The notes under the pieces were generated by a model, which worked only from the letters and a program-made list of their open reading frames with translations, did not search any database and was not told the DNA's origin. The translations under genes and the position numbers were made by a program. Positions 13,827 to 31,528 of a stretch of DNA of 40,000 nucleotides are shown here, piece after piece (positions within the stretch are counted from its first letter, which is position 1; each line of letters starts with the position of its first letter). The stretch is taken from positions 205,536 to 245,535 of the forward strand of contig CAVWOB010000017.1 in NCBI GenBank assembly GCA_963756335.1, read 5' to 3'. Source of the stretch: an uncultured Alphaproteobacteria bacterium. Lineage in GTDB: Bacteria; Pseudomonadota; Alphaproteobacteria; Rhizobiales; Rhodomicrobiaceae.

Positions 13827-13843
13827 CCGATAAGCCGCGCGAG
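13827..13843. repeat. Left copy of the direct repeat flanking the casposon-like element (putative target-site duplication)
   Basis: CCCCGATAAGCCGCGCGAG occurs at 13825-13843 and again at 28924-28942. Sequence diverges immediately outside the repeat: the left copy is preceded by ggat while the right copy is preceded by the TIR end, and the left copy is followed by the TIR start while the right copy is followed by cctgtc. A 17-bp parse (CCGATAAGCCGCGCGAG) makes both element termini symmetric. Confidence 0.8.
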
Positions 13844-15768
13844 GGGGGAGTGAGGGGGGGCCGCAACGCTCCTGTTTTGCGCACACTTAGCCGCACGAGT
13901 TAAGCGCGCTTTAAAAACTCTCGAAAAATTCCGCCATAAAATCGCGCACACGAAAAACGTGCGCAGAAATTTTCGACAAATCCGAAGCGGTTGTTTCACG
14001 CACACGTTCTGCGAGCATGTGTCTGAGCCTGCGTGTGAAGTGCATGTTTCACGCACGCTTCCCGGCAAGCATGTTTTGCGCAGCGCATGTTTCACGCACA
14101 TAAAATGCGCGCTATAATTTCGGGCAAGTTTTCTGCGCGTGGTGGAAAAGCCGCGTCAAGATGCGCGGCGAGCGAAGTGCATAATATACATGTGAGAGAG
14201 TGTGAGAGAGCTGTGTGTGGCGTGTAATGTGTTCGCGTTGCGCGCGGTAGAATGCATCATGCAAGTCGCGAGTAATTTCGAACAGAAGCAAGAACGCATT
14301 ACTTAAGACGCGTCTACATTTTCGCCTTATGTTGGTCGGGTCGAAAATTGATCAAGTTAATGTGCTGATTTGCATGAGAACAACTTAGCAGAACGTGTTT
14401 AACAGAGTGCTAATTTCGACTTCGGCTGTTGCATTTGGCGCGAGCTGGTGCGGGCCGCGTGAGGCATGCGGTATGCGGCATGTGGCATGCGGCATGCCAG
14501 TTGTTTCACAAGAGCTTGCGTGAAACGCGGCGCGCCATAGGGTTGCGCCGGGCAGGCGCTTTCGGATTGTATACAATCTGTGGAGCATCGCGCCGTCGGC
14601 CAGCGCCGGGCCATCGCCCCGAACGTCGCTGTCGGACTGCGCCTTGCCGCCAGTCTGCATCGCCCAGTCCCTCGCGGCCAACGCCGGGCGGTCGCCTCGA
14701 ACGTCGCCGCCGGTCTGCGCCGCGCCGTCGGTCCGCATCGAGCTGGCGCTCGCGGCCAGCGCCGGGCGGTCGCCCCGAACGTCGCCGCCTGTCCGCGCCT
14801 CGCCGCCGGACTGCATCGAGCTGGCGCCCGCGGCCAGCGCGGGGCCATCGCCCCGAACGTCGCCGCCGGTCTGCGCCGCGCCGCCGGACTGCATCGAGCT
14901 GGCGCTCGCGGCCAACGCCGGGCGGTCGCCCTGAACGTCGCCGCCTGTCCGCGCCTCGCCGTCGGACAGCATCAGGCGGTCGCTCTGAACGTCGCCGCCG
15001 GTCTGCGCCGCGCCGCCGGACTGCATCGAGCTGGCGCTCGCGGCCAACGCCGGGCGGTCGCCCCGAACGTCGCCGCCGGACTGCGACGGGCGGTCGCTCG
15101 CTGCCAGCGCCGGGCGGTCGCCTCGAACGTCGCCGCCGGTCTGCGCCGCGCCGCCGGTCCGCATCGAGCTGGCGCCCGCGGCCAGCGCGGGGCCATCGCC
15201 CCGAACGTCGCCGTCGGACTGCGCCTTGCCGCCGGACTGCATCGAGCTGGCGCCCGCGGCCAACGCCGGGCGGTCGCCCTGAACGTCGCCGCCTGTCCGC
15301 GCCTCGCCGTCGGACAGCATCAGGCGGTCGCTCTGAACGTCGCCGCCGGTCTGCGCCGCGCCGCCGGACTGCATCGAGCTGGCGCTCGCGGCCAACGCCG
15401 GGCGGTCGCCCCGAACGTCGCCGCCTGTCCGCGCCTCGCCGTCGGTCCGCATCGAGCTGGCGCTCGCGGCCAGCGCCGGGCCATCGCCCCGAACGTCGCC
15501 GCCGGACTGCGACGGGCGGTCGCTCGCGGCCAACGCCGGGCGGTCGCCCTGAACGTCGCCGCCTGTCCGCGCCGCGCCGCCGGTCCGCATCGAGCTGGCG
15601 CTCGCGGCCAGCGCCGGGCGGTCGCCCCGAACGTCACCGCCTGTCCGCGCCTCGCCGCCGGTCCGCATCGAGCTGGCGCTCGCGGTCAACGCCGGGCGGT
15701 CGCCCCGAACGTCGCCGCCGATCTGCGCCTCGCCGCCGGACTGCATCGAGCTGGCGCTCGCGGCCAGC
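13844..15768. repeat. Left terminal inverted repeat (TIR-L): ~750-bp unique subterminal segment plus a tandem module array
   Basis: Reverse-complementary to 26886-28925. For 13844-14934 every ORF boundary pair checked obeys x+y=42769 and the mirrored ORF translations are identical (e.g. 14644-14934 + versus 27835-28125 -; 14399-14848 - versus 27921-28370 +). Confidence 0.9.
14598..15768. repeat. Tandem array inside TIR-L: 16 GC-rich modules of 54, 60 or 78 bp
   Basis: 16 copies of the core GGCGGCGACGTTCRRGGCGAYSGCCCGGCGYTGGCC (seen here as its complement, ...gaacgtcgcc...). All six frames are open across the array. Confidence 0.9.
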
Positions 15769-15879
15769 AAGGCTCTTCAGGGTCGTGAACGGACGTGCCG
15801 ATTTTCTCGCGATCCCATACGCGCCGAGTCGGCTTCGGGATCCCAATGCGGTCTTATCCGAGACGGCGGAAGAATTAGG

Positions 15880-18800
15880 TCATGTGTTCGGAAACGTTAA
15901 TTCGCATCGCAGTCCTTCAGGCTCGTAGCGGAGATCGCAATCGCCATCGAGTTCATGTTGCGTAATCTGCCTGATAAGATTGGTGCCGAAGCCTTCGCGG
16001 TCCGGCTGTTTCACAAGCGGGCCGCCGCTTTCCTGCCAAATGAGGCGGATCGTGGCCTTACGTCTTATGTTCAAGCGCACGGAGACCCTGCCTCCATTCT
16101 GGGAGAGTGCGCCGTATTTTGCAGCGTTGGTTACGAGTTCATGAAGGGCGAGATAAGCCGAGAGCGCCTTCCGGGGCGGAAGCTCCACCTTCGGCCCTTC
16201 CACGATCACCCGCGCTGGATCGAAAGGCTGGGTGGCGTCTCGCACAAGCTGCGCAAGGCTGACCGGGGTCCAATCGCGCTTCAACAGCAGACTGTGAGCC
16301 TGCGCGAGCGCGGCAAGCCGACCTTGAAATACGTCCCCGAACTCTTCCAGAGACGCGCTATTGCTTAGTGTTTGCGATGCCATGGCTTGCGCAACGGAGA
16401 GTGCATTCTTGACGCGATGGTTGAGCTCATGCATCAGCAAATTCTGATACGCTTCGTCTTGTTTGCGTTCGGTGATGTCCTCGATCACCAGCAAAATGAG
16501 TTGAGCTTCGTCCACCCTTTGGCCGCTCAGCAGCATGGTCCTCTTGCCGATTGTTTCGAAGGTGTGCTCAACCAGTTGATTAGAAAAGTTTTCAAAGCGT
16601 TCCAGAACAGCGGTCAGAAGCGTGCGCAACAAAGGAATATTCCATTGACCGTTGCCAAGGTCGTAGACGAGGCGATGCAATGTCTGATCTGCGCTCACCT
16701 GAAAGGATTTGTAGAACGCTGGGTTGGCTGAAATCACGCGCAGATCGGGGTCGAGCACCAACAGCGGGGTCGGCACTGCTTCGACGACGCTCTCGGCGTA
16801 ATGCCGGGCAGCCTCGATGGCGGTGATATCGAAGAACGTAACCACCAGGCCGTCAATGCGGTCGTCACGGGTACGGTAGGGTTGAATACGACGGACGAAC
16901 CAACGGTCATTCCTGCTTCGAACCTGTTTTTGGGAAGGCGTCAGGGTGCGGAGCGTGCGCTCGCAATCCGCCGTAAAATCTTCATCCGCCGTTTTCTGGG
17001 AGAAGTCGGAAATTCGACGGCCGATATCGCTCGAGCGAACATTGAATAGGTTGACAACGCCCGGGGAGAACCAGCGAATGTGCAGGTCCCGGCCCAGAAA
17101 GAGCGTGGCCACGTCTGTGCTGCCCAGCAGATTGTCGAGATCATTGGTGCGCTCGTACAACTCGTCCACTTTGGCGCGCAACTGGTTGTTGACGGTGTTC
17201 AGCTCCTCATTAAGGGACTGCAGTTCCTCCTTCGAGGTCTCGAGCTCCTCGTTCGCGGCGCGAAGCTCTTCGTTCATGGACATGATTTCTTCGTTATAAG
17301 ACTTCAGCTCTTCCTGGGAGCGGTTCATGACGTCGGCCGACGTTATGATTTCCTCCCGAAGAAACTTGACCTCCGCTTCAAGTTCCTGCTCGCGCGACAA
17401 GTCTGGCGCGACCTCTGCTTTGCTCGCCATGCCGCTGGCCTTGGCCTCAACAAAACTGACAAGAAACCTGATTTCGCCATCCTGTTTGAGCGGGACAACT
17501 TCAACAAGAACGGGCACTGTTTTGCCGTCCTGACGGAACTGGCCCTGCTCCGTTTGCGGTGCGTTCGTCTCTTTTGCCTTTTCGATGATCCGGCGCAGGC
17601 GTAGGTCCAGTCCGTCGCGCGCCATTGCAAGGAGATCCTGGGTCGGTTCTCCCGATTGCGGCTTAAGGAACCGCTCCGTGGCGCCGTGGTAATAAAGCGT
17701 CTGAAGATTGCTGTCGATCAGAACGGAGGGCGGAGCGTAGCGGCCGGCCAGCGTCTTTAAGGCTTCCTCGGTTCTGCGCACAGGCATGCGTTGCCCTGTC
17801 TCCGGCGCTGGGTAGTTGGAGAGATACCGGCTTCCCCCCTGTGGAGAAGGAAAATCGACGATATCGTGACGGGTTGCACCGAGTTGGCGATAGAGCCGCC
17901 ACTTCTTGGAAATAGTCTCGAACAGGAACTCGGCTCCACCCAGAGACTCGGCGCTCCCGAGAAACAAATATCCCCCCTCGGAAAGAGCGAAATGGAACAA
18001 CCGCAAGACCTTCTGTTGGACCTCAGATTGAAGATAGATCAGAACGTTACGGTAAACGATGAGGTTTAGTCGTGAAAAGGGCGGGTCCTGAACGGCATTT
18101 TGAGGTGCGAATACCACGCATTCCCGAAGCTTCCGCGAGACCGCAGCAATATCGTCTCCGCGCTCGAAATAGTCCCGTCTCAGCTTTTCTGGCAGGAGCT
18201 GCAAGGCGGCTTCGGGGTAAAGCCCTGCCCGCGCTCGGCTCAGTGCGGTCGGCGACGGGTCGGTGGCGAAAATCTCGATGGGAAAGCGCTTCTTCTGAGC
18301 CTTCATCTCCTCCATCAGAAGCATGGCGAGCGAGTATGCTTCCTCGCCCGAAGCGCACCCAGGCGCCCAGGCGCGAAAGGGCTGGTCGGTGTCATGCGCT
18401 GCGATGAGCGGGCGGAGGGCCTCGTCGCGAAGCGTGTTCCAGGCTTCCTGATCGCGGAAGAAACCGGTTACGGCAATAAGCAGGTCGTTGGTAAGGGCCT
18501 GTATTTCCTCCCGTTTCTCGTGCAGGTATTTGACATAAGCGTCCCAGCTGTTCAGCCGCAGCAAGCCGACCCGGCGGCCGATGCGCCGCTGCAGCGTTCC
18601 CGTCTTGTAGTTTCGGAAGTCGATCGAGGTGTTTGCGCGCAATGTCCCGAGGATCGCCTTGAACGCCTTCTCCTTTCCCGCCTCATTTTGCACAGCTGAA
18701 GTATTTGCCTCTTGCTGCTGCTCACCTGCAGCGGGAGAGCGGAGATGCTCCGCGTAGCGTGCTATCGTTGCGATCATCTCCTCCGGAAGCAGCACGGAGT

Positions 18801-19326
18801 CCACGAACCCCGTACCAATCGCACGCCTTGGCATCTCGCCGAATTCTGCAGAGTCCGGGCTTTGCGCGAGGACGAGGCCGCCTCCTTCGCGAACCGCGGA
18901 CAGGCCTGCAGAGCCGTTGGACCCCGTCCCAGACATGACGACGGCAATCGCCCTCGATCCGGCGTCCTCGCCGAGCGACGCAAAAAGTTCGTCCACGGGA
19001 TGAGCGATCCCCGCCCCCCGCTTATGTGGCTCCAGCCATCCTTGCCGCACCACCAGCGCTTGACCGGGAGCAAGAACGTACACATGCCCAGCTTCGATCC
19101 GCGTCCTGCCAGCGACCTCGGAGACCGAAAGGCGGACCGTGCGCTGCAACAGCTCCGCCAGATGGCTTTTGTGATCGGGAGAGAGGTGCGATATGACGAC
19201 AAACGCCATATCTATGGGATCGCCCGACGCTTCGACGGCCTCAAAAAATGCCGTGAACGCCGTCAGGCCCCCGGCGGACCCGCCCAGGGCGACGATAGGA
19301 AAAGCGTTGGCCGGTGCAACCGTCAT
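15880..19326 (-). CDS. CheB-methylesterase / CheR-methyltransferase / PAS / HWE-type histidine kinase fusion protein (cargo gene of the element)
   Basis: 1148 aa. N-terminal CheB catalytic domain (VALGGSAGG..., MSGTGSNGSAG). CheR SAM-methyltransferase (VTGFFRD, WAPGCASGEEAYSLAMLL, IFATD). A coiled-coil, PAS modules, HisKA_2-type H-box LMHELNHRVKNALSVAQAM and HELVTNAAKYGAL. Confidence 0.85.
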   Translation of the reverse strand: MTVAPANAFPIVALGGSAGGLTAFTAFFEAVEASGDPIDMAFVVISHLSPDHKSHLAELLQRTVRLSVSEVAGRTRIEAGHVYVLAPGQALVVRQGWLEPHKRGAGIAHPVDELFASLGEDAGSRAIAVVMSGTGSNGSAGLSAVREGGGLVLAQSPDSAEFGEMPRRAIGTGFVDSVLLPEEMIATIARYAEHLRSPAAGEQQQEANTSAVQNEAGKEKAFKAILGTLRANTSIDFRNYKTGTLQRRIGRRVGLLRLNSWDAYVKYLHEKREEIQALTNDLLIAVTGFFRDQEAWNTLRDEALRPLIAAHDTDQPFRAWAPGCASGEEAYSLAMLLMEEMKAQKKRFPIEIFATDPSPTALSRARAGLYPEAALQLLPEKLRRDYFERGDDIAAVSRKLRECVVFAPQNAVQDPPFSRLNLIVYRNVLIYLQSEVQQKVLRLFHFALSEGGYLFLGSAESLGGAEFLFETISKKWRLYRQLGATRHDIVDFPSPQGGSRYLSNYPAPETGQRMPVRRTEEALKTLAGRYAPPSVLIDSNLQTLYYHGATERFLKPQSGEPTQDLLAMARDGLDLRLRRIIEKAKETNAPQTEQGQFRQDGKTVPVLVEVVPLKQDGEIRFLVSFVEAKASGMASKAEVAPDLSREQELEAEVKFLREEIITSADVMNRSQEELKSYNEEIMSMNEELRAANEELETSKEELQSLNEELNTVNNQLRAKVDELYERTNDLDNLLGSTDVATLFLGRDLHIRWFSPGVVNLFNVRSSDIGRRISDFSQKTADEDFTADCERTLRTLTPSQKQVRSRNDRWFVRRIQPYRTRDDRIDGLVVTFFDITAIEAARHYAESVVEAVPTPLLVLDPDLRVISANPAFYKSFQVSADQTLHRLVYDLGNGQWNIPLLRTLLTAVLERFENFSNQLVEHTFETIGKRTMLLSGQRVDEAQLILLVIEDITERKQDEAYQNLLMHELNHRVKNALSVAQAMASQTLSNSASLEEFGDVFQGRLAALAQAHSLLLKRDWTPVSLAQLVRDATQPFDPARVIVEGPKVELPPRKALSAYLALHELVTNAAKYGALSQNGGRVSVRLNIRRKATIRLIWQESGGPLVKQPDREGFGTNLIRQITQHELDGDCDLRYEPEGLRCELTFPNT

Positions 19327-19338
19327 TCGCGGATGCTA

Positions 19339-19626
19339 TCAGATTGGGGGGGGGGGCGCTTGGAAATTTTCCAATATTGCAACGCTATTTGCCACATACT
19401 TGTAGAGAACGGCACGGGGAAGATGCGGGCGCAAATTCCAATACTTGGCCGCAATTCCGAGAACAACTTCTTCCGTGTAGCTTGAGATGTTGGCGGTGTC
19501 GAGCACGCCCACTATGAGATCCGAAAGCAGGCATAACCGCTTGAGCGCTCTTCCAAGGCCCGCTTCTTCAGCTGACGGCCTTTGCCCGACTTTGAGCGCC
19601 GGTTCCGACCTAGGCGCGTCTGCCAT
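19339..19626 (-). CDS. Hypothetical 95-aa protein between cas1 and the kinase gene
   Basis: ORF only. It starts 14 nt after the cas1 stop with no clear SD. Its C-terminal PPPP is encoded by the 11-nt homopolymer tract at 19346-19356. Confidence 0.3.
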   Translation of the reverse strand: MADAPRSEPALKVGQRPSAEEAGLGRALKRLCLLSDLIVGVLDTANISSYTEEVVLGIAAKYWNLRPHLPRAVLYKYVANSVAILENFQAPPPPI

Positions 19627-19640
19627 CGGCTTGCGCTATC

Positions 19641-20855
19641 TTATCGCCGCGAAGTCGTCCTTCCATCGCCCCGCCTAACAGCGCTCTCAAGCCACTCGCA
19701 TAATTCGCTCAAGTCTCGTTGCGTCGCCAGCGCGCGACCCGCCACGATCCGCGCGATTTCCGGCGCGAGCCGAACGACGCCGTTGTTTGAGAGCGTGAAT
19801 TCCTTACGCCGGAAAGTGCGGTTCGCGGTGAAACTCAGAATTCGCGCATCGATGGGGCCGCGCTGCAATTCCAGCGCGTCATAGACGAGACTCGCGCGAT
19901 ACTCTTTCAAGAGATGAAGAAACCCTATGGCGGTATCGAAGCCCCAAGCCGTTAAAGCGCGTTCGATCTGTGCGGCGGCGACCATGTAAGCATAGTTCAA
20001 TATCGCGTTGAAGGGATGGAGAGCGTGACGCGGCGAAGGATTACAGAGCGAAGCGTTGCGGCTATCCCAAGAATCCCAAGCTTCCGGCCAATCTTTTCCA
20101 AGACCGCGAAAAACGAGCTTCCTTCTAAGTCCAATGAAATGCGCCTGTGCAGCTACACCTTCGGCAAGCAGGAGGTTCGGCAAATCAGTCGCCATCTTGA
20201 CCCGCGAGAGATGCGCGTGCGTCTCGCGTCTACTGAGAAAGCCGCATTCGCAGCTCGCGAGAATCTTCTGTGTGACGATGGCGGACGCGACCGGCAAGGG
20301 GTTTGAGAAAGCGGCGTACTGCGCCAGCCGAAGTTTTGCTTGCTTGGCTGGCGGCGTGGTGAGCATGACGGAAGCCGTGTTATGCCCGGTCGCGACGAAC
20401 AGCCCAACCTCATGACGCGCCAGCCATTTCAGCGCCTCTCCTGTGACATGGAAACCGGGCGCTTCCGCTATGATGCTTTCGAAAGGCGGCAGTCCAGGCA
20501 TATATGAGATTTCGCGGTCCGCGTCGAAGACTACCAGTTGCTTCTTTCGAACTGAAAGCCCGGAACACGGCCCCTGTAGAATGAGCACTTTGGCATTGAC
20601 CGCTCTAGACGATGCACGCCAGTAGGCTGGCAGTTTTAGGCTTGCTTGACCGGTCCGTCTTAACGCATCCGGTGTTAACCCGCATTCCTTGACCGCCCGC
20701 ATAGTCGCGTTGACTTTATAGCCATGCTTCTCGGCGAGTTTTGCGTAGGATAATCCCGAAGCCCTTCCTTGAAGCATCGAATTCAGAACGTTTTCGGGAA
20801 TGTCGATGCGAGGCATGAGAAAATCCGTCGAAGAAAACCAGGTGCTAATGTACAC
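19641..20855 (-). CDS. cas1: Stand-alone Cas1 homologue (putative casposase)
   Basis: 404 aa. The C-terminal half reads ...LLLAEGVAAQAHF...HPFNAILNYAYMVAAAQIERALTAWGFDTAIGFLHLLKEYRASLVYDALELQRGPID. This matches the Cas1 alpha-helical domain pattern N..LNY.Y...G.d...GFLH...R.SLvyD..E..Rp.vD, with the Glu/His/Asp metal-binding positions present. The N-terminal half looks like a beta-rich Cas1 N-domain (VLILQGPCSGLSVRKKQLVVFD...). An alternative start lies at 20816. Confidence 0.8.
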   Translation of the reverse strand: MYISTWFSSTDFLMPRIDIPENVLNSMLQGRASGLSYAKLAEKHGYKVNATMRAVKECGLTPDALRRTGQASLKLPAYWRASSRAVNAKVLILQGPCSGLSVRKKQLVVFDADREISYMPGLPPFESIIAEAPGFHVTGEALKWLARHEVGLFVATGHNTASVMLTTPPAKQAKLRLAQYAAFSNPLPVASAIVTQKILASCECGFLSRRETHAHLSRVKMATDLPNLLLAEGVAAQAHFIGLRRKLVFRGLGKDWPEAWDSWDSRNASLCNPSPRHALHPFNAILNYAYMVAAAQIERALTAWGFDTAIGFLHLLKEYRASLVYDALELQRGPIDARILSFTANRTFRRKEFTLSNNGVVRLAPEIARIVAGRALATQRDLSELCEWLESAVRRGDGRTTSRR

Positions 20856-21134
20856 GCACGAAATTACAAGCGCGTAAATGCGCGCACTTTTCGGCGTCTC
20901 TCAAAAACGTCTCAACAAAACATGCCACCACAGACAGACATAAAAGAGAACTCTACTTTGTTCTAGCTGATTTGGCTAGAGCTAAGCCTTTGCCTTTCTT
21001 GGTACTCCTGTCCGTATGCGATGAAATTACAACACTTAGAACCTGACTTAGAACCTGACAGGCCGCGTTAACCTTTGGTTAACCCACGCCGTCTCAAATC
21101 AGGTTAATGTAGCAATAGAAGGAAGGAGAAAGCT
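20856..21134. promoter_or_regulatory. Divergent control region between cas1 (-) and the RHH/PolB operon (+)
   Basis: AT-rich 279-bp spacer. Perfect tandem 12-mer CTTAGAACCTGA x2 (21035-21058). Palindrome GTTAACCtttGGTTAAC (21067-21083). GAAATTACAA occurs twice (about 20866 and 21023). Strong SD gaaggaaggag precedes the 21135 ATG. Confidence 0.5.
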
Positions 21135-21419
21135 ATGCCTAAGCATGAAAAACAGGTCGCTCTGCAAATCTACCCTGTAGATTTCGAATACATCACAGAA
21201 CTATCCACGGAACGCGGCGTGTCGAAGCGCCACATTTTACGTTCGGCGCTTAGATCGGGCTTGCGCATGTTGCTCGAAAAACACTCGAATACAGCGTTGC
21301 TCGATCAATATGACGCCGCTCTCAAGCAAGGTTTTGAGAAAGAGTGTCGCGAGAAAGCTGATAGGCTTCGCAAAACTTGGGCGCTCGATTTCAGCGAGGC
21401 TGACAATGTTGCCGTTTGA
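21135..21419 (+). CDS. Small ribbon-helix-helix (CopG/Arc-like) DNA-binding protein, putative
   Basis: 94 aa with a strong SD. The N-terminal stretch KQVALQIYPVDFEYITELSTERGVSKRHILRSALRSGLRML fits a beta-strand/helix/helix RHH layout. Confidence 0.5.
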   Translation: MPKHEKQVALQIYPVDFEYITELSTERGVSKRHILRSALRSGLRMLLEKHSNTALLDQYDAALKQGFEKECREKADRLRKTWALDFSEADNVAV

Positions 21420-21687
21420 CGAAAAGATTAGATATGCCGTCGATCTTTCACCTGAGGAACATCGTGTTCTTTGGGCTTTGGCACGCGAGTGCGGCTTGGT
21501 ACGCTCCGACTTGGCGGCGATAGCCATCGTGCGCGGCTTACCGCTCATTTCTGATGGTGAGAAGCTGACGGCTTACAAGGCGCGCCGCCGGGAAGCGCTC
21601 AATCTGCGGCGCAAGTTCAATCCCGATCTTGATGAGCGCGATTTTGAGCCGTCGAGAACTGAGACCGGACATGCGCACGCTTCCTGA
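21406..21687 (+). CDS. Second small RHH-like protein, putative
   Basis: Internal ATG at 21406 overlaps the upstream stop by 14 nt. IRYAVDLSPEEHRVLWALARECGLVRSDLAAIAIVRGL again resembles the RHH pattern. Confidence 0.4.
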   Translation: MLPFDEKIRYAVDLSPEEHRVLWALARECGLVRSDLAAIAIVRGLPLISDGEKLTAYKARRREALNLRRKFNPDLDERDFEPSRTETGHAHAS

Positions 21688-22216
21688 AACGAACATCACC
21701 GGTTTCCGGCTTATCGACAAGGGCGCACCCGCCGTTGCAGAACGTATCCAAGTTTTTTTAAGCGCGCCTATGCGGATGTATCGCGCCTCGCATTACGATG
21801 CTCTCGCGCGCCGTATCGAAATGTCGCTCCACCCGAGAGCCGATGTTTTATCCGCGCGCGAAATGTTTCTTGATTGGCGAGATTGGTGCGTCAACTACCG
21901 AGAGCGCATCGCAAGGGTCTCTATCGTTTACATCTTGACTGATCTGCACGGGTATATCGGCGCTGGCCAGTTCGCCGAACTTGCGGAGATGATTAATCTC
22001 CCGAACGAATGTGATCGGCATCCCGTCCGCAAAATGATCGCCGTCCGCCCCTATACCCGTAGCATGCATGCCGATAACTTAGAGTTCTGCGAACGTGGTC
22101 ATTTTGAGATGCTTCCGAATTGGGATTTTCAGCGCTGCGCAAAATTCAGTAAGAGCTTGCCGAGTTACCATATCAGTTACGTCGAATTAGTCCGCAAAGA
22201 AAAAAAAGGCGGCTGA
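21671..22216 (+). CDS. Hypothetical protein with a Cys/His-rich C-terminal part
   Basis: ORF 21629-22216; the ATG at 21671 overlaps the upstream gene end. No recognisable family. The C-terminal segment CDRHP...HADNLEFCERGH...C might bind metal. Confidence 0.45.
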   Translation: MRTLPETNITGFRLIDKGAPAVAERIQVFLSAPMRMYRASHYDALARRIEMSLHPRADVLSAREMFLDWRDWCVNYRERIARVSIVYILTDLHGYIGAGQFAELAEMINLPNECDRHPVRKMIAVRPYTRSMHADNLEFCERGHFEMLPNWDFQRCAKFSKSLPSYHISYVELVRKEKKGG

Positions 22217-22227
22217 AAACGCCGCCT
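22207..22227 (+). terminator. Possible hairpin terminator/attenuator after the 195-aa ORF
   Basis: AGGCGGC-tgaaaac-GCCGCCT stem-loop spanning the stop codon, followed by a weakly T-rich tail (tgtaaatctgtctt). Confidence 0.3.
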
Positions 22228-22520
22228 TGTAAATCTGTCTTCGTGTAAGCCCGAGTTAAACCACAAAATCGAGTGTCACAAGCATTCGACTTTGTCAAGG
22301 CTATCAGCGGAACCCTCAATTCCGCATCGTTAGAAGGAGACCTTCTTTAATGACCGCTAGTTTCAGTCGCCAAACCATCAACCGAACAGTCAAAAAGGAC
22401 TCCAAATCATGTCCCAAAATAACAACAGCACGTCTGCGCCGCAAGAAAAACTAAGGCGCTCGCACAAAATTTCTATGACCGCGACCGGCGCTTTCGCCTC
22501 GATAAAAGGAGGCTGCCGTC

Positions 22521-23195
22521 ATGGCTAAAAAGCTGACCCGCGCCGAAAAAAGAATTGCCGGGGCCAAAGCGGCGGATTTCCGTAAGCTGACAAAGGCCGA
22601 ACTCGAAAAGCTTGGCCATTCGGCTAAATCATCGCGCTATATAGAGATCGGCAAGCGCGTCGCCAAAAACACGAAGACGATTTCGAAGCGCCTTTTCACG
22701 GTCAAGATGACCGGCGCGTCACCGGAAGCTCTCGCGAGAGCGCATGCGGAAGGCGAACTGATCTATAAGAGCCGGAAGAACCAAGATGCAGCCGAGAAGC
22801 AGCGACGCACACGACTTAAACAAAAGGTTGAACGCAACGCGAAACGCGAGCTTGAATTAGCCGATAGGAAGTACAAACCATTATCAGCGAAACAATCCGA
22901 ACGCGCGACGTTTAACTTCGAAAAGAAGGTCTCGAATATTCGATATGCCCAACCCGAATTGAATGCGCGAGAAAAGCAGTCTTGGCGAGTTAGCCGGTAT
23001 ATTGGCGATCAAGCTGTAAACGATTATCGCCAAAAGGTCAGCGATCCAAACCATTTCGTTCCTCACGGTCGCTATCAAAACCTGCTCGATATCGCGCGCG
23101 CAGCGGGTGATCCTAACATTGGGCGGCTCTTGCAGTCGAAAAGCGATAAACGCGCAAGCGATGAAGATGACTTAGAAATTGATGAGGCGGCCTAA
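22521..23195 (+). CDS. Highly basic Lys/Arg-rich 224-aa protein, translationally coupled to PolB (nucleic-acid-binding; terminal-protein candidate)
   Basis: Strong SD aaaggagg. The stop overlaps the PolB start (TAATG at 23192-23197). Lys/Arg-rich throughout. No recognisable family. Confidence 0.6.
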   Translation: MAKKLTRAEKRIAGAKAADFRKLTKAELEKLGHSAKSSRYIEIGKRVAKNTKTISKRLFTVKMTGASPEALARAHAEGELIYKSRKNQDAAEKQRRTRLKQKVERNAKRELELADRKYKPLSAKQSERATFNFEKKVSNIRYAQPELNAREKQSWRVSRYIGDQAVNDYRQKVSDPNHFVPHGRYQNLLDIARAAGDPNIGRLLQSKSDKRASDEDDLEIDEAA

Positions 23196-25996: not shown

Positions 25997-26047
25997 AAGC
26001 TTAAGTCTCGTGCGACGCGATTTGGTGACCATGCAGGAAACACGTAA

Positions 26048-26308
26048 ATGAACAACACCTTTCAGAATTACATGCTCAAACTCGGGCCTCTGTTCGGCGG
26101 CGTCATGTTGCCGAACCCAAGCCCAGCGGAAGTCAATCTTTCGAATATCTATGCAGAGTTGAACCATAGTTCGGATGCCGAAATACACGCAAGAGATTTT
26201 GTTCGCGCGCGCAAAAGCGTTGAAAATGTGCTGTACGCGGTCGTACGCATCATGAAACTCATCAGAACTTCTTTGGAGGTTGCATGCCGTTCGCTCTTAT
26301 CATCATAG
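26048..26308 (+). CDS. Hypothetical small protein
   Basis: 86-aa ORF with a weak SD (agga). It overlaps the downstream membrane-protein gene by 25 nt. Confidence 0.35.
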   Translation: MNNTFQNYMLKLGPLFGGVMLPNPSPAEVNLSNIYAELNHSSDAEIHARDFVRARKSVENVLYAVVRIMKLIRTSLEVACRSLLSS

Positions 26309-26796
26309 GCTTGGCTTTGGTCATCACCTCTGCCCAAGATACTTACGTGCAGTTTGGGCGTCAGATCAAATCCGATTTGATCGGACCGGGAGGTTTTATC
26401 TATTGGGCGGCTTCTCTCGGAATGGCGGGCTCTTTTGGATACATCGAACCGCTGCGCCGTTTCAGCACCGCGTTAATGGGTCTGGTCTTGTTGGTGTTTC
26501 TGTTGAAGAACAAAAATTTCTTCGCCAATCTCAAAGCCGGTTTGGCGGCGAAACCTGTAACTCCCGCAAAAAGCGATGCGTCAAAGATGCCTTCCATCTC
26601 GCCAGCTTCTTTGGCGCTCACGCTCGATAAGAACACGCTCAACCTTGGCGGAAACGCTACGAACTTCGGTAATTGGATGACGCAACTCATGACGGGGGTT
26701 GATCCGGCGACGGCTGTGCCGCTCACAGGCATCAACGGCGTTTCGGTTGACGACTTCCTTGGCGCATGGCGCGGGCCGGAGAGCGGAGCTTTTTGA
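26284..26796 (+). CDS. Hypothetical integral membrane protein (about three TM helices)
   Basis: GGAGG lies 5 nt upstream of the ATG. Hydrophobic segments FALIIIGLALVITSA, FIYWAASLGMAGSFGYI and ALMGLVLLVFLL. Confidence 0.6.
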   Translation: MPFALIIIGLALVITSAQDTYVQFGRQIKSDLIGPGGFIYWAASLGMAGSFGYIEPLRRFSTALMGLVLLVFLLKNKNFFANLKAGLAAKPVTPAKSDASKMPSISPASLALTLDKNTLNLGGNATNFGNWMTQLMTGVDPATAVPLTGINGVSVDDFLGAWRGPESGAF

Positions 26797-26885
26797 GGAT
26801 ACGTTTTTCAGGACCGGAACAAGCCACCCGTTGTAGTTGAGGCCCCAACAGCGTCCTTCTCAAATGCAACGCTTCGCTGCTACGG

Positions 26886-28171
26886 CGCAGATTGCGAGCG
26901 ACCGCCCGTCGCAGTCCGGCGGCGACGTTCGGGGCGATGGCCCCGCGCTGGCCGCGAGCGCCAGCTCGATGCGGACCGGCGGCGCGGCGCAGACCGGCGG
27001 CGACGTTCGAGGCGACCGCCCGGCGCTGGCCGCGAGCGACCGCCCGTCGCAGTCCGGCGGCGACGTTCGGGGCGATGGCCCGGCGCTGGCCGCGAGCGCC
27101 AGCTCGATGCAGTCCGGCGGCGCGGCGCAGACCGGCGGCGACGTTCAGAGCGACCGCCTGATGCTGTCCGACGGCGAGGCGCGGACAGGCGGCGACGTTC
27201 AGGGCGACCGCCCGGCGTTGGCCGCGGGCGCCAGCTCGATGCAGTCCGGCGGCAAGGCGCAGTCCGACGGCGACGTTCGGGGCGATGGCCCCGCGCTGGC
27301 CGCGGGCGCCAGCTCGATGCGGACCGGCGGCGCGGCGCAGACCGGCGGCGACGTTCGAGGCGACCGCCCGGCGCTGGCAGCGAGCGACCGCCCGTCGCAG
27401 TCCGGCGGCGACGTTCGGGGCGACCGCCCGGCGTTGGCCGCGAGCGCCAGCTCGATGCAGTCCGGCGGCGCGGCGCAGACCGGCGGCGACGTTCAGAGCG
27501 ACCGCCTGATGCTGTCCGACGGCGAGGCGCGGACAGGCGGCGACGTTCAGGGCGACCGCCCGGCGTTGGCCGCGGGCGCCAGCTCGATGCAGTCCGGCGG
27601 CAAGGCGCAGTCCGACGGCGACGTTCGGGGCGATGGCCCGGCGCTGGCCGCGGGCGCCAGCTCGATGCGGACCGGCGGCGCGGCGCAGACCGGCGGCGAC
27701 GTTCGAGGCGACCGCCCGGCGTTGGCCGCGAGGGACTGGGCGATGCAGACTGGCGGCAAGGCGCAGTCCGACGGCGACGTTCAGAGCGACCGCCTGATGC
27801 TGTCCGACGGCGAGGCGCGGACAGGCGGCGACGTTCAGGGCGACCGCCCGGCGTTGGCCGCGAGCGCCAGCTCGATGCAGTCCGGCGGCGCGGCGCAGAC
27901 CGGCGGCGACGTTCGGGGCGATGGCCCCGCGCTGGCCGCGGGCGCCAGCTCGATGCAGTCCGGCGGCGAGGCGCGGACAGGCGGCGACGTTCGGGGCGAC
28001 CGCCCGGCGCTGGCCGCGAGCGCCAGCTCGATGCGGACCGACGGCGCGGCGCAGACCGGCGGCGACGTTCGAGGCGACCGCCCGGCGTTGGCCGCGAGGG
28101 ACTGGGCGATGCAGACTGGCGGCAAGGCGCAGTCCGACAGCGACGTTCGGGGCGATGGCCCGGCGCTGGCC
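26886..28171. repeat. Tandem array inside TIR-R: 18 GC-rich modules of 54, 60 or 78 bp
   Basis: 18 copies of the core ...GGCGGCGACGTTCRRGGCGAYSGCCCGGCGYTGGCC. Relative to the left arm it contains an extra 288-bp block (3x78+54), and the inner units are shuffled. Confidence 0.9.
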
Positions 28172-28925
28172 GACGGCGCGATGCTCCACAGATTGTATAC
28201 AATCCGAAAGCGCCTGCCCGGCGCAACCCTATGGCGCGCCGCGTTTCACGCAAGCTCTTGTGAAACAACTGGCATGCCGCATGCCACATGCCGCATACCG
28301 CATGCCTCACGCGGCCCGCACCAGCTCGCGCCAAATGCAACAGCCGAAGTCGAAATTAGCACTCTGTTAAACACGTTCTGCTAAGTTGTTCTCATGCAAA
28401 TCAGCACATTAACTTGATCAATTTTCGACCCGACCAACATAAGGCGAAAATGTAGACGCGTCTTAAGTAATGCGTTCTTGCTTCTGTTCGAAATTACTCG
28501 CGACTTGCATGATGCATTCTACCGCGCGCAACGCGAACACATTACACGCCACACACAGCTCTCTCACACTCTCTCACATGTATATTATGCACTTCGCTCG
28601 CCGCGCATCTTGACGCGGCTTTTCCACCACGCGCAGAAAACTTGCCCGAAATTATAGCGCGCATTTTATGTGCGTGAAACATGCGCTGCGCAAAACATGC
28701 TTGCCGGGAAGCGTGCGTGAAACATGCACTTCACACGCAGGCTCAGACACATGCTCGCAGAACGTGTGCGTGAAACAACCGCTTCGGATTTGTCGAAAAT
28801 TTCTGCGCACGTTTTTCGTGTGCGCGATTTTATGGCGGAATTTTTCGAGAGTTTTTAAAGCGCGCTTAACTCGTGCGGCTAAGTGTGCGCAAAACAGGAG
28901 CGTTGCGGCCCCCCCTCACTCCCCC
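26886..28925. repeat. Right terminal inverted repeat (TIR-R)
   Basis: Reverse complement of 13844-15768. Ends ...CGTTGCGGCCCCCCCTCACTCCCCC, immediately followed by the direct repeat. Confidence 0.9.
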
Positions 28926-28942
28926 CCGATAAGCCGCGCGAG
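28926..28942. repeat. Right copy of the flanking direct repeat (putative target-site duplication)
   Basis: CCGATAAGCCGCGCGAG is identical to 13827-13843. Because of the C-run the identity can be read as 15 to 19 bp. Confidence 0.8.
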
Positions 28943-29288: not shown

Positions 29289-31289
29289 CTACAGCACAAG
29301 CGCTTGCGCGATTTCTTCGGCCTTTTTGGTCTTGGCGGCGCGGCCCTCGTCTAGCTTCTTCTCTTCGGTCTCGATGGCGGCGATGCGGTCTTCCTGGGAC
29401 TTCAGCGTCTCGATATAGCGGCGGCCGAGGTCGGAAGCCTGGCCGACGCTTGCGAGGTTCTGGCGAATGCGATCCTGATCGCTCCCGATCTTGTCGCGCT
29501 CCGCGTCGAGCGCGGTCTTGCGTGCAGCGATCTTCGCGATATCGCCAACCACTGCGCCGAGCTTCGCGACCGCTTCTTTCAACGCGGGCGTGTCGTTCTG
29601 CAAGCCGGAAACGGTGGCGTAAATCTGGTCCGGCGCGAGCGAGACGAGGCTGATGGTTTCGCTGTCGATGTGCTCGCGCGCGAACGTCGCCTTGGTGGTC
29701 TTGCCCTTAGGCGCATCGACCCGGAAGCGAACGCGCGAGGCGTTCTCCTCGAAGTCCTTCGCCTCGCCGGCGGGTTTCCAGCCATTCTGGCGCGGCTCCT
29801 CGATATAGACTTCGCGGTCTTCCCCGGCGGGCGGCGTGATCTCGTAGTCGATTGCCCAGCGCGATTTCACCGTCACGGTCAGCTCGCCGCCCACGGCCTT
29901 GCCGAGGCGGACCTGCCTCGATCCCTTGTCCTCGCGGCGGATCTCGGTTTTCGAAATCGAGCGCGAAGGTGATGAATTTCGTGGCGCCCTTCGAGAGGAG
30001 CGGCAGCTGCGCGTCGCCCGCGAAGTTGGCCGAACCGTCGCCGCCCGTCTCGAACGAGGTGATGAGGCCCGAGGGCAGCGCGGATTCGCCGTCATTGGTA
30101 AGCCGCACCGCGGCGAGCGGCCGGGTCGAGTTCGTCTCGGGCTGGTAGACGTAGGTGCGCGACGCGGTCACGTCCCGGTCGGCGAAGGGGATCATCATCG
30201 TCGAGCCGGAAGCGAGCGTCACCTTTCCGGGGAAGCGGAACAGCACATGCGTCGCGTCTTCCTCGGGCACGGCAGCGGCCTGGGCCACGGCGAGGTCCTC
30301 GGTCAGCGCGAGGGCGCGGGTGGCCGCCTTGGGGGCAGGCGGCGCCGCCCGGCCGGCGCTCCAAAGCCGCGAGCCCGGCGGATGCCGCCCACCGCGGTTT
30401 CCGGCGCCTCATCCTTGTTGGGCACGACGCGCAGCGAAGACGTAACGGGAATCTCGGGCCGGTCCACGTACACGGCGGAATAGAGCGCCTGCTTCAGCGC
30501 GACCGGATTGCCGGAGACGAGCGTGAGGTCCACATCCTTCCAGTCGCCGCCGGTGAGATTTTCGAGGATGCCCCAGCCTTGCAGCCTCGCCTTTCCGCCT
30601 TCTTTCGGCAGCACGAGGCGGTAGGACGTTTTCCAGACCGGCGCCGCGACCACATAGCTGAAGCCCGCCTGCCGCGCTCCTTCGCCGCCGAGCACGATGG
30701 AAAGCGTGCGCCTGTCCTTCGCGCGATTGGTGGCGATCCCTGTCAGCGCCCGGTCGATCTGGGCGCGCGTTTCCGCATCCTTGAAGCGCACCGCCGTCAG
30801 CTCTTCGAGAACGGCCTGGACGAAGCCCTTGTCCGTCAGAAGCGTGAGCCTATGCCGCTTCGTGTCGCCGCCATCGTTCGGCAGCCGGACGGTCTCCTCC
30901 TCCACGCGGAAGACGCGGCCGGAAGCCATGACGCTGCCCTCGATCTCGACCTCCGCACCGATAAGCGCGTTCAGAAGCGCGGCCTGCGATTCAAGCGCGG
31001 CCCTGTCGAAAGGCAGGTCGCGAAAAAGCTCCGCGAGCGGCGTTTTTCCCGGCAGGCTGACGGCGCCGACCGCGCCCGCCGCGTCGAACACTGTCAGGCT
31101 TTTCAGAACGTCGTCCACCTGGCCGATGCGCACCGGCAGCTCGATGACCGTTCCGGCCTCGGCATCGCCCGCATGGGTGAATTGTATGAGCCCGGAGGTT
31201 GAAAGCACAACGCGCTTCAAGGGAAATTCGGCGGCATGGGCCGCCAGGGGAACGCCAGCCAAAGCGGCCGCCACAATCATCCGTCTCAT
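29289..31289 (-). pseudogene. Large secreted protein gene (possibly DUF4139/MuiA-like) split over three reading frames by two apparent frameshifts
   Basis: A signal peptide MRRMIVAAALAGVPLAAHA starts at 31289. The coding signal continues from ORF 30303-31454 into ORF 29707-30288 (shift near 30,330-30,400). It then continues into ORF 29289-30095 (shift near 29,945-29,955). The C-terminus is a coiled-coil. The family call is tentative. Confidence 0.6.
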
Positions 31290-31528
31290 GACATCGATCC
31301 AAAAGTGGAATTGAATACAAGCGTTTTCTATCAGCCAAGGAATTGGCGCGCAATTGCGGCGTCCCAGCGGCCAAATCCTGCAACGGAAAAAGTTAAATTG
31401 TGTCATACGGCGAGCCCGGAATATTTGACAAAACCGCACATTCTCCCGCAACAACGGCTCTGCCGCGCTGGCGCTTACATTCGCGACGCTATATATTCGG
31501 TCAAAATAACAAATTGGGAGGACAATTC

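What the first reader, a model, noticed from the sequence alone, without database searches (positions are those of the whole stretch)
13827..28942. Casposon-like element: solo Cas1 plus PolB bounded by long TIRs and a 15-19 bp target-site duplication
Four independent signals coincide. (1) A 404-aa Cas1 homologue keeps the GFLH / SLVYD..E..RGPID catalytic-domain pattern, yet no CRISPR array, cas2 or other cas gene is present in the window. (2) A 933-aa family-B DNA polymerase has Exo I and Pol A/B/C motifs. (3) Inverted repeats begin GGGGGAGTGAGGGGGGGCCGCAACG at both ends. (4) A perfect direct repeat CCCCGATAAGCCGCGCGAG abuts the two ends, far longer than the 2-9 bp made by most DDE IS elements. 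It is in the range reported for casposase integration (about 14-15 bp in the Aciduliprofundum system). The element lies in an intergenic spot between envZ and a secreted-protein gene. Its core is visibly AT-richer than the ~70% GC flanks. Casposons are known mainly from archaea and a limited set of bacteria. A 15-kb copy in a high-GC alphaproteobacterial-type chromosome, with 2-kb repeat-laden TIRs and a chemotaxis-type kinase cargo, does not match any casposon family I can recall.
Basis: partly seen in the sequence, partly recalled or inferred. Interest (0 to 1): 0.92.

Follow-up and report, generated by a model that had tools for sequence, protein, structure and literature searches.

The report
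Bacterial casposon with phage-type polymerase
This is an intact 15-kb "casposon", a transposon that inserts with a Cas1-like enzyme and carries its own DNA polymerase, in a soil alphaproteobacterium; it pairs a bacterial-type integrase with a phage-like polymerase in a combination that the papers I could search do not describe.

Summary
The element spans 13844-28925 (15,082 bp). Its inverted ends are identical for 1,154 nt and recognisable for about 1.9 kb. A perfect 17-bp direct repeat flanks it (19 bp with a 2-nt overlap). It encodes a Cas1 homologue that groups with casposases, not CRISPR Cas1, and a family-B polymerase. No CRISPR array, tRNA or other cas gene lies in the window.

It is a casposon, but two points need correcting. 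Alphaproteobacterial casposons of about 16 kb are already known (family 3). The new feature is the polymerase. Family 3 carries RNA-primed-type PolB plus HNH. This PolB is PF03175-type, closest to tectivirus polymerases and, in fold, to phi29 polymerase. A conserved basic gene directly upstream is a candidate terminal protein. No HNH was found. The casposase branches inside the bacterial (family-3-like) radiation.

A second complete element of this lineage in a Methylocella genome has 553-nt perfect inverted ends, a 15-bp duplication and similar G-rich tips. Three to four further partial or decayed loci link the same polymerase family to Cas1.

Verdict: a real, probably recently active casposon and a new variant of a known kind. 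Protein-primed replication is inferred, not shown. No empty site was found.

The parts
13827..13843 (.). Left copy of the direct repeat (target-site duplication), CCGATAAGCCGCGCGAG. It reads as 19 bp from 13825 if the CC overlap is counted.
   Evidence: Exact copy, one of only two in the window, directly abutting the left tip.
13844..15768 (+). Left terminal inverted repeat, about 1,925 nt. The tip is GGGGGAGTGAGGGGGGG. The AT-richer subterminal part (13844-14596) carries TGTTTCACGCAC-type short repeats. The tandem array follows at 14597-15766.
   Evidence: 100% identical to the right end for 1,154 nt; subterminal repeats.
14597..15766 (.). GC-rich tandem array inside the left end, with units of 78, 60 and 54 bp.
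   Evidence: Tandem Repeats Finder. Several frames stay open, but unit variation shows no 3-base periodicity and there are no Pfam hits. Coding status is unresolved.
15880..19326 (-). Cargo gene: a 1,148-aa CheB-CheR-PAS-PAS-HWE histidine kinase fusion.
   Evidence: Pfam hits include CheR 7.7e-50, CheB_methylest 4.4e-44 and HWE_HK 2.2e-24. It is absent from the related elements L001, L087 and L099, so it is variable cargo.
19339..19626 (-). 95-aa ORF downstream of cas1, function unknown.
   Evidence: No family hit. It is present in the near-identical copy L004.
19641..20855 (-). Casposase: a Cas1 homologue of 404 aa (probably 391 aa from Met14 at 20816), with an N-terminal HTH-like extension.
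   Evidence: PF01867 and TIGR00287. E232, H314, D326 and E329 are invariant in 15 homologues. It groups with casposases by BLAST, NJ tree and PDB search.
21135..21419 (+). 94-aa gene transcribed divergently from cas1. It is conserved in the closest relatives. A ribbon-helix-helix DNA-binding fold is a guess from the sequence pattern only.
   Evidence: Homologues sit at the same position in L001, L004 and L087. No Pfam hit.
21406..21687 (+). 93-aa gene, conserved in the closest relatives, function unknown.
   Evidence: 93-aa genes occupy the same position in L001, L004 and L087. phmmer matches.
21629..22216 (+). Gene of about 175-195 aa, conserved in the closest relatives, function unknown.
   Evidence: phmmer matches in L001 and L004. 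No family hit.
22521..23195 (+). 224-aa basic protein whose stop overlaps the polB start. Candidate terminal protein (inferred).
   Evidence: The N-terminal 95 aa or so are strongly conserved in L001, L087 and L083. A homologue lies directly upstream of PolB in L099 (profile E=1.8e-16). The position matches the rule for terminal-protein genes stated in PMC4046053.
23195..25996 (+). Family-B DNA polymerase of the PF03175 (protein-primed/phi29-like) class, 933 aa.
   Evidence: motifs; tectivirus Toil PolB, hhalign E=2e-69; piPolB only E=9e-12; model pLDDT 86; the best folds are phi29 polymerase, E=1e-15.
26284..26796 (+). 170-aa predicted membrane protein, conserved in the Methylocella element.
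   Evidence: phrog_14462, E=6.7e-16. A homologue is present in L099 (E=7.8e-14).
26947..28925 (-). Right terminal inverted repeat, about 1,979 nt, with its tandem array at 26894-28180.
28926..28942 (.). Right copy of the direct repeat (target-site duplication).

Best explanation
The stretch 13844-28925 is an intact, probably recently active casposon. It sits in the chromosome of a Rhodomicrobium-like alphaproteobacterium, between the 3' ends of an envZ-type kinase gene and a DUF4139 gene.

Integration (inferred from what is established for casposases). The element's Cas1 homologue joins the 3'-OH ends of the G-rich tips to the two target strands at staggered positions. Gap repair then produces the flanking 17-bp duplication. 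The real stagger may be nearer 15 bp.

Replication (inferred). The element carries a phi29/tectivirus-class family-B polymerase. The conserved basic protein encoded just upstream is a candidate terminal protein. Together they would copy the excised linear element from both ends by protein priming. This would also explain why the long inverted ends stay perfectly identical.

Classification. The element belongs to a small lineage of Hyphomicrobiales elements. They combine a bacterial, family-3-like casposase with this polymerase module instead of the RNA-primed-type PolB plus HNH of published bacterial casposons. The chemotaxis-type kinase is exchangeable cargo.
For: Shown here:
- Anatomy of ends and duplication.
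- Cas1 profile hits and conserved catalytic positions.
- Casposase rather than CRISPR Cas1 by BLAST bits, NJ tree and best PDB hit, the 6OPM casposase.
- No other integrase, transposase or HNH in any non-overlapping ORF.
- PolB class: PF03175; closest annotated relatives are tectivirus polymerases; the best structural matches are phi29 polymerase at E=1e-15 against 1e-9 or weaker for other PolBs.
- Canonical family-3 loci (Nitrosomonas, Tsuneonella, Sphingomonas and others) carry a different PolB of about 1,050 aa with weak PF00136 hits. The profile of this PolB family does not detect that PolB.
- The same PolB family sits next to Cas1, or a Cas1 remnant, in L001, L087, L085/L086, L083 and L099.
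- L099 (Methylocella) is a second complete element. It has 553-nt 100% identical ends, a 15-bp duplication, tips GGGGGGATATGGGGGGG, a homologue of the terminal-protein candidate and a homologue of the membrane protein.
- Near-identical core DNA turns up in two other sequencing runs (98.4% and 99.9%).
- The interior GC is lower than the host's.
Against: - No empty site was found. The nearest relative (84% nt identity) is rearranged at this locus. The exact empty-site 29-mer and the tip 22-mer have no match in the JGI metagenome contigs.
- Mobility is inferred from anatomy, not observed.
- The terminal-protein role rests only on position and conservation. The gene has no family hit and is not found fused to longer PolB homologues.
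- The PolB shares with primer-independent PolBs the loss of the first Asp of motif C (SFMTDG) and a KxRG motif, so priming could be de novo.
- The apparent 17-19-bp repeat may overstate the real stagger. This happened with the N. koreensis casposon: 22 bp apparent, 13 bp real (PMC8464041).
- The NJ tree has weak deep support.
- The rest of the genome could not be checked for a CRISPR locus that lacks cas1.
Confidence: 0.8

Rival explanations
1. It is simply another family-3 bacterial casposon of the published kind, and the polymerase difference is an annotation artefact of a divergent RNA-primed PolB.
For: The casposase branches within the bacterial radiation, near NitAL212-C1. The host class, size, intergenic target, kinase cargo and StrAlb-C1-like tips all fit family 3.
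Against: The PolB hits PF03175, not PF00136. It aligns over 483 columns with a tectivirus PolB at E=2e-69, and its model matches phi29 polymerase best. Genuine family-3 loci in the same data set carry a different PolB of about 1,050 aa that this family's profile does not detect. No HNH gene is present.
Confidence: 0.08
2. The polymerase works without any primer, like the piPolB of pipolins, so replication does not use a terminal protein. The upstream basic protein would then have another role, for example DNA binding.
For: Motif C lacks the first Asp (SFMTDG; family consensus xTDG), and a KxRG motif replaces KxY. Both features were described as piPolB hallmarks. The candidate terminal protein has no detectable family. 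Related Microbacterium phage genes are annotated 'DNA primase/polymerase'.
Against: It is far closer to tectivirus PolB (E=2e-69) than to a bona fide piPolB (E=9e-12 over 223 columns). tblastn found no match in 72,556 plasmids, a set that includes the piPolB plasmid pSE-12228-03. The tectivirus Toil PolB carries the same ETDG and KTRG motifs. Long, perfectly identical inverted ends and a conserved gene directly upstream of polB are the classic layout of protein-primed replicons (PMC4046053).
Confidence: 0.2
3. It is an integrated tectivirus-like virus or linear plasmid that happens to carry a Cas1 gene, rather than a transposon.
For: The polymerase is closest to those of 15-18-kb tectiviruses and tectivirus-like viral contigs. 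A small membrane protein matches a phage family (phrog_14462). The Methylocella relative has a lysozyme-like gene with a weak virion-protein hit.
Against: PHROGs and Pfam found no capsid, packaging ATPase or other virion gene in the window element or in L099. No Cas1 occurs in the related viral contigs. The element is bounded by a 15-19-bp target duplication, the signature of Cas1-type integration, and has no other integrase.
Confidence: 0.07
4. The inverted duplication is an assembly artefact of a metagenome-assembled genome, or the element is a dead relic.
For: The source appears to be a metagenome assembly. Related contigs break in the repeat region (L087 ends in the array). The neighbouring DUF4139 gene looks frameshifted.
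Against: The ends are bracketed by an exact duplication within normal host synteny on the left. All core genes are intact ORFs. The core DNA recurs in independent runs. An independent genome shows the same architecture. Perfect identity of the ends argues for recent activity, not decay.
Confidence: 0.03

Closest known systems
Family 3 casposons (NitAL212-C1, StrAlb-C1, HenMar-C1/C2, HypCY54-C1, CitBat-C1; Krupovic et al. 2014, 2016)
   Same: - Bacterial hosts, including Alphaproteobacteria; size 14-16 kb; intergenic insertion.
- The casposase is the closest published relative (NitAL212 30% identity, 122 bits; StrAlb 29%).
- Similar G-rich tips (StrAlb-C1 GAGGGGGAGTAGAGAG) and similar duplication length (StrAlb-C1 18 bp, NitAL212-C1 14 bp).
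- Variable cargo that includes kinases.
   Different: - Family 3 carries an RNA-primed-type PolB and an HNH endonuclease. This element has a PF03175/phi29-like PolB, a candidate terminal-protein gene and no HNH.
- The HTH-like extension is N-terminal.
- The inverted ends are about 1.9 kb with tandem arrays, against 36-116 nt in the published family-3 elements.
Family 1 casposons (Nitrosopumilus; thaumarchaeal)
   Same: - Protein-primed-class PolB, with a conserved gene just upstream proposed as the terminal protein.
- Motif C variation in the polymerase.
   Different: - Archaeal hosts, and a site-specific target in the aEF-2 gene.
- The family-1 casposase lacks an HTH and forms a separate clade (74-78 bits to this Cas1, against 122 for family 3).
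- Their PolBs group with His1/His2 viruses. This one is nearest to actinobacterial tectivirus PolBs; His1 is only a weak hit (E=5e-6).
Tectiviridae and phi29-type protein-primed replicons
   Same: - Polymerase class and fold.
- Linear-replicon layout with inverted ends.
- G/C-run termini compatible with sliding-back initiation (from my own knowledge of PRD1, not tested here).
   Different: - No capsid or packaging genes.
- Integrated in a chromosome with a target duplication.
- Carries a Cas1-type integrase.
Pipolins (piPolB elements)
   Same: - Bacterial self-replicating elements with a PF03175-related PolB.
- Shared xTDG and KxRG motif variants.
   Different: - Pipolins use tyrosine or serine recombinases and direct-repeat att sites, not Cas1 with inverted ends.
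- The PolB here is only distantly related to a bona fide piPolB (E=9e-12 over the palm and fingers region).

Membership tests
Casposon (superfamily) | Cas1 homologue of the casposase clade, not a CRISPR-associated Cas1 | tested here: met
   60-125 bits to casposases of families 1-3 against at most 38 bits to CRISPR Cas1. The NJ tree places it among bacterial casposases. The best PDB hit is the casposase 6OPM, E=5e-15.
Casposon (superfamily) | Family-B DNA polymerase gene inside the element | tested here: met
   PF03175 above cut-off. All Exo and Pol motifs are conserved. High-confidence PolB fold.
Casposon (superfamily) | Terminal inverted repeats flanked by a target-site duplication | tested here: met
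   The same holds in relative L099.
Casposon (superfamily) | No CRISPR array or other cas genes nearby, and no other integrase | tested here: met
   Met for the 40-kb window only. The rest of the genome was not available.
Casposon (superfamily) | Demonstrated integrase activity or mobility | not testable with these tools
   No empty site was found. Biochemistry is needed.
Casposon family 3 | RNA-primed-type PolB related to family-2 and archaeal PolBs | tested here: not met
   The PolB is PF03175/phi29-like. Family-3 loci carry a different PolB.
Casposon family 3 | [quoted passage not shown] | tested here: not met
   No HNH hit in any non-overlapping ORF at Pfam E<=0.01-5. A very divergent HNH cannot be excluded.
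Casposon family 3 | Casposase in the bacterial clade of the Cas1 tree | tested here: met
   The NJ tree gives 100% bootstrap for the window's own subclade and weak support for deeper nodes.
Casposon family 1 | Protein-primed-class PolB with a candidate terminal-protein gene upstream | tested here: met
   Class and gene position are shown; the priming mode is not.
Casposon family 1 | Thaumarchaeal-type casposase clade without an HTH | tested here: not met
   Only 74-78 bits to the Nitrosopumilus casposases, which form a separate clade. An N-terminal HTH-like extension aligns with relatives that carry HTH_38/HTH_23 hits.
Pipolin / piPolB | piPolB clade polymerase (SxTTDG, KH-X8-KTRG) with a tyrosine or serine recombinase | tested here: not met
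   The motifs are similar (SFMTDG, KSRG), but there is no KH. Homology to a bona fide piPolB is weak (E=9e-12) compared with tectivirus PolB (2e-69). No recombinase is present.
Tectivirus-like provirus | Double jelly-roll capsid protein and packaging ATPase | tested here: not met
   No PHROGs or Pfam hits of that kind. The search was by sequence profiles only.

The most novel reading that the evidence does not exclude
These elements would form a fifth casposon family, confined so far to Hyphomicrobiales (Rhodomicrobium-like, Methylocella and related soil genomes). In it a bacterial family-3-type casposase has been joined to a tectivirus-like module of protein-primed polymerase plus terminal protein. 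Casposases would then have paired with protein-primed replication modules at least twice independently: once in Thaumarchaeota and once in bacteria. Bacterial casposons would also be able to exist as protein-capped linear replicons with kilobase-long, homogenised inverted ends.
Probability: 0.55. Interest if true: 0.72.

Novelty: new variant of a known kind. Interest (0 to 1): 0.62.

Why it matters
Casposons are the proposed ancestors of the CRISPR adaptation machinery. Only about 48 reference elements in four families were in use as recently as 2024 (PMC11551731). No bacterial casposase has been studied biochemically in the papers I could search.

This element adds three things:
- It shows that the integration and replication modules of casposons are exchangeable across domains of life.
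- It links bacterial casposons to tectivirus-type replication.
- It supplies two intact, apparently young elements with defined tips and targets, in the window and in Methylocella.

These elements make several questions directly testable. How does a bacterial casposase measure a 15-19-bp stagger, against 13-15 bp in archaeal ones? What does an N-terminal HTH do? Does a casposon really replicate by protein priming?

Tried and rejected
- **Empty site.**
  - The closest orthologous locus (L088, 84% nt) has the FolB..DUF4139 block inverted relative to the window, so it cannot serve as an empty site.
  - A second orthologue had no DNA available.
  - The exact 29-mer spanning the predicted empty site and the 22-mer tip both gave 0 matches in the JGI metagenome contigs.
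- **Own contig.** Exact look-ups of the window's Cas1 (P0001) and PolB found no contig on record. The window's genome is not among the GTDB species representatives.
- **piPolB hypothesis.** It was raised by the SFMTDG and KSRG motifs. It was downgraded after hhalign against a real piPolB and a tectivirus PolB and after the plasmid search found nothing.
- **Coding test of the tandem arrays.** No 3-base periodicity and no excess of synonymous changes in any frame. No family hits.
- **Terminal-protein fusion test.** Longer PolB homologues do not carry the candidate terminal-protein domain at their N-terminus.
- **376-aa protein in the Cas1 position of L083/L084.** It is not Cas1-like (hhalign probability 0.1%). 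A Cas1 fragment lies elsewhere in L083.
- **Inverted ends in other loci.** None were found in the held parts of L083, L086 and L087.
- **Small conserved ORFs.** Pfam, NCBIfam and PHROGs gave nothing.
- **Rfam and tRNA scans.** Both were empty.
- **Literature.** I found no paper in the held library that describes a bacterial casposon with a protein-primed-class PolB. The 2017 review was not held.

Full report
**1. What is in the sequence**

The repeat finder reports inverted arms at 13843-15099 and 27670-28926 (1,257 nt, 99%). Reading both ends shows the tips GGGGGAGTGAGGGGGGGCCGCAACG at 13844 (+) and 28925 (-).

A base-by-base comparison from the tips finds no mismatch for 1,154 nt. The arms then stay alignable at about 90%, with insertions and deletions of whole units, out to about 1,925 nt on the left (to about 15768) and 1,979 nt on the right (from about 26947).

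The inner two-thirds of each arm is a GC-rich tandem array: 14597-15766 on the left and 26894-28180 on the right. The units are 78, 60 and 54 bp.

The outer 750 nt or so is AT-richer and carries short subterminal repeats of the type TGTTTCACGCAC.

The 17-mer CCGATAAGCCGCGCGAG occurs exactly twice in the window, at 13827-13843 and 28926-28942, directly abutting the tips. Because the right arm ends in CC, the repeat can also be read as 19 bp with a 2-nt overlap. Such overlaps are described for many casposons (PMC4046053).

The element is therefore 13844-28925, 15,082 bp. Its interior is 46-60% GC, against 61-70% in the flanks.

**2. Genes**

| Coordinates | Strand | Product | Evidence |
|---|---|---|---|
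| 15880-19326 | - | CheB-CheR-PAS-HWE histidine kinase, 1,148 aa | |
| 19339-19626 | - | 95-aa ORF, unknown | |
| 19641-20855 | - | Cas1 homologue (PF01867 E=4.6e-27; TIGR00287 83 bits) | |
| 21135-21419 | + | 94-aa gene, unknown | |
| 21406-21687 | + | 93-aa gene, unknown | |
| 21629-22216 | + | about 175-195-aa gene, unknown | |
| 22521-23195 | + | 224-aa basic protein; its stop overlaps the polB start | |
| 23195-25996 | + | 933-aa PolB (PF03175 E=3.3e-9) | |
| 26284-26796 | + | 170-aa membrane protein (phrog_14462) | |

The 94-aa, 93-aa and 175-195-aa genes form a divergently transcribed set next to cas1.

No non-overlapping ORF matches an HNH nuclease, a tyrosine, serine or DDE recombinase, a capsid protein or a packaging ATPase.

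The window holds no CRISPR array, tRNA or Rfam family. The flanking genes scanned are ordinary chromosomal genes: biotin carboxylase, HMG-CoA lyase, a PAS kinase, an aminotransferase, ompR/envZ, DUF4139, TPR and ClpA.

The best matches of the flanking kinase are Rhodomicrobium-labelled genomes at 84-90% identity. The host is therefore a Rhodomicrobium-like member of the Hyphomicrobiales.

**3. The Cas1 is a casposase**

I took reference sequences from the alignment published with the original casposon paper. Against these, the window's Cas1 scores as follows:

| Reference | Bits |
|---|---|
| Family 3 NitAL212 | 122 |
| Family 3 StrAlb | 104 |
| Family 2 | 78-102 |
| Family 1 | 74-78 |
| Any CRISPR Cas1 | at most 38 |

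Its best solved relative is the M. mazei casposase 6OPM (E=5e-15), against 3e-7 or weaker for CRISPR Cas1.

E232, H314, D326 and E329 are invariant in 15 homologues. These are the positions of the Cas1 catalytic residues by alignment.

In a neighbour-joining tree the window groups with four close relatives at 100% bootstrap. This subclade lies inside the bacterial radiation, next to NitAL212-C1. Deep nodes are weakly supported.

The clade is rare. Among 1.84 billion representative proteins, 2,598 match at E<=1e-3 but only 17 at E<=1e-30.

The first 90 residues or so align with relatives whose N-termini carry HTH_38 or HTH_23 hits. The DNA-binding extension therefore appears to be N-terminal, not C-terminal as in family 2 (PMC6977970).

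**4. The polymerase is not the family-3 kind**

Published bacterial casposons (family 3) carry RNA-primed-type PolBs and an HNH gene. Protein-primed PolB defines the thaumarchaeal family 1 (PMC4046053, PMC4779613). A 2024 paper still describes family 1 as the archaeal casposons encoding pPolBs (PMC11161782), and another uses 48 casposons from the two reference studies (PMC11551731).

In my own sample of 77 Cas1 loci from species-representative genomes, the Nitrosomonas, Tsuneonella, Sphingomonas and several uncultured-alphaproteobacterial loci carry a PolB of about 1,050 aa with weak PF00136 hits. That is the family-3 pattern.

The window's PolB differs in four ways:
- It matches PF03175.
- Its nearest annotated relatives are the polymerases of actinobacterial tectiviruses (Rhodococcus phage Toil, Streptomyces and Microbacterium phages), followed by His1 and Acidianus viruses.
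- The family profile aligns with Toil PolB over 483 columns at E=2e-69.
- An AlphaFold model (pLDDT 86, pTM 0.84) matches phi29 polymerase best, including the complex with its terminal protein: E=1e-15 and TM 0.60-0.66. Other PolBs reach only E>=1e-9 and TM about 0.35.

A profile of this PolB family detects nothing in the family-3 loci.

Two motif variants first suggested a primer-independent PolB (PMC5695915). These are SFMTDG in motif C, where the first Asp is lost, and KSRG in place of KxY. Three results argue against that reading:
- A bona fide piPolB (plasmid pSE-12228-03) aligns only over 223 columns at E=9e-12.
- No plasmid in PLSDB matches the PolB.
- The tectivirus enzyme carries the same ETDG and KTRG motifs.

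The polymerase therefore belongs to the protein-primed/piPolB supergroup and lies nearest to tectiviral enzymes. Its actual priming mode is unproven.

**5. A lineage, not a one-off**

The same PolB family lies next to Cas1 in several places:
- L001: Cas1 72% identical, with the same 94/93/175/198-aa genes.
- L087: the same gene set, different cargo (HSP70-like, AAA), and a similar tandem array where the contig ends.
- L085/L086: an uncultured alphaproteobacterium that also holds a family-3-type locus elsewhere on the same 6-Mb contig.
- L083: a decayed copy with IS elements and a Cas1 fragment.
- L099: a Methylocella genome.

L099 is complete. It has inverted ends at 7678-8230 and 21642-22194 (553 nt, 100% identical). 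It has a 15-bp direct repeat CCGCTTTTTGCTTGC abutting them. Its tips, GGGGGGATATGGGGGGGTACAGG, follow the same G-run, five bases, G-run pattern as the window's. It has a homologue of the 224-aa protein directly upstream of PolB (E=1.8e-16) and a homologue of the 170-aa membrane protein. Its GC is lower than its flanks.

The window's core DNA recurs at 98.4% and 99.9% identity in two unrelated sequencing runs.

The published StrAlb-C1 has similar tips (GAGGGGGAGTAGAGAG) and an 18-bp duplication beginning with a C-run.

**6. How it most likely works**

*Shown.* A Cas1-family integrase is the only recombinase candidate. The tips and a 15-19-bp duplication bound the element. A phi29-class polymerase is present, with a conserved gene just upstream.

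*Established for other casposases and inferred here.* A casposase oligomer uses the 3'-OH of each tip to attack the two target strands at a fixed offset. Repair of the gaps then yields the duplication (PMC6977970, PMC8464041).

*Inferred.* After excision the linear element is copied from both ends by the PolB, with the 224-aa protein as primer. The G-run tips would allow sliding-back initiation; this rests on my own knowledge of PRD1-type replicons and was not tested. Copying of both ends from one another would explain the perfect identity of 1,154 nt here and 553 nt in L099.

The short subterminal repeats are candidate binding sites. The kilobase tandem arrays have no assigned role, and I found no evidence that they code for protein.

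I put the casposon identity at about 0.9. The distinct pPolB-bearing lineage stands at about 0.75. Protein priming stands at about 0.55, against about 0.2 for primer-independent synthesis.

**7. Caveats**

- No empty site could be found, so insertion is inferred from anatomy.
- The apparent repeat length may exceed the true stagger. The N. koreensis element showed 22 bp against a real 13 bp. The relative L099 shows 15 bp.
- The trees are neighbour-joining only.
- The literature check is limited to the held library, and the 2017 review was not available.
- The rest of the genome is unseen.

**8. Verdict**

It is not the first alphaproteobacterial casposon. It does represent an architecture that the papers I could read do not describe: a family-3-like casposase, a tectivirus-like PolB, a candidate terminal protein, no HNH and very long repeat-laden ends. 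It is backed by a second intact element.

I classify it as a new variant of a known kind, with interest 0.62.

Noticed in passing
L007 6098-10945; L012 4187-10927; L002 4397-13210: The sister clade of this casposase (34-39% identity; Rhodomicrobium and other alphaproteobacterial genomes) sits next to other replication-type genes instead of a PolB. L007 has an AEP-TOTE primase fused to a ResIII/DEAD helicase. L012 has a 1,324-aa protein with a weak 3'-5' exonuclease hit. L002 has an unknown 1,044-aa protein plus TIR-domain proteins. These may be Cas1-solo elements with non-PolB replicases.
   Followed up: no
window 29418-35257 versus L088 7448-13380: Relative to the nearest related genome (84% nt identity), the block from DUF4139 to folB is inverted in the window. 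One breakpoint coincides with the casposon insertion site just after the envZ-type gene. No second element copy or end remnant lies at the other breakpoint.
   Followed up: partly
window 29289-31454 (-): The DUF4139 gene to the right of the element is split into two ORFs (383 + 268 aa). The relative has a single gene of at least 666 aa. This is a frameshift, a pseudogene or a sequencing error.
   Followed up: no
L097 2857-4647 (Rhodococcus phage Toil PolB): The tectivirus polymerase carries ETDG and KTRG motifs. These resemble the SxTTDG and KTRG features published as hallmarks of primer-independent PolBs. Related Microbacterium phage genes are annotated 'DNA primase/polymerase'. The motifs may therefore not be specific to piPolBs.
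   Followed up: partly
L083 6934-8064 / L084 201-1331: In a decayed relative, a 376-aa zinc-ribbon protein with no similarity to Cas1 occupies the position next to the small-gene/PolB module. An SNF2-type helicase follows PolB, and a 99-aa Cas1 fragment lies further on among IS elements.
   Followed up: partly
L099 18826-20446: In the Methylocella element, the homologue of the window's 170-aa membrane protein (phrog_14462) is adjacent to a 380-aa lysozyme-like protein with a weak 'virion structural protein' hit. This hints at a phage-derived envelope or lysis module in the lineage. The window element has only the membrane protein.
   Followed up: partly
window 7819-8776: A 390-bp tandem repeat (2.5 copies, 75% identity) lies inside the 2,091-aa multi-PAS hybrid histidine kinase gene (3983-10258, -). 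It corresponds to repeated PAS domains.
   Followed up: no
window 14091-14118 (+) and 28651-28678 (-): Each inverted end contains an inward-facing promoter-like site (TTCACG, 16 nt, TATAAT; 10 of 12 matches) overlapping the subterminal TTTCACGCAC repeats. Promoter-like sites in the region were no more frequent than in shuffles, so this is only a lead.
   Followed up: no
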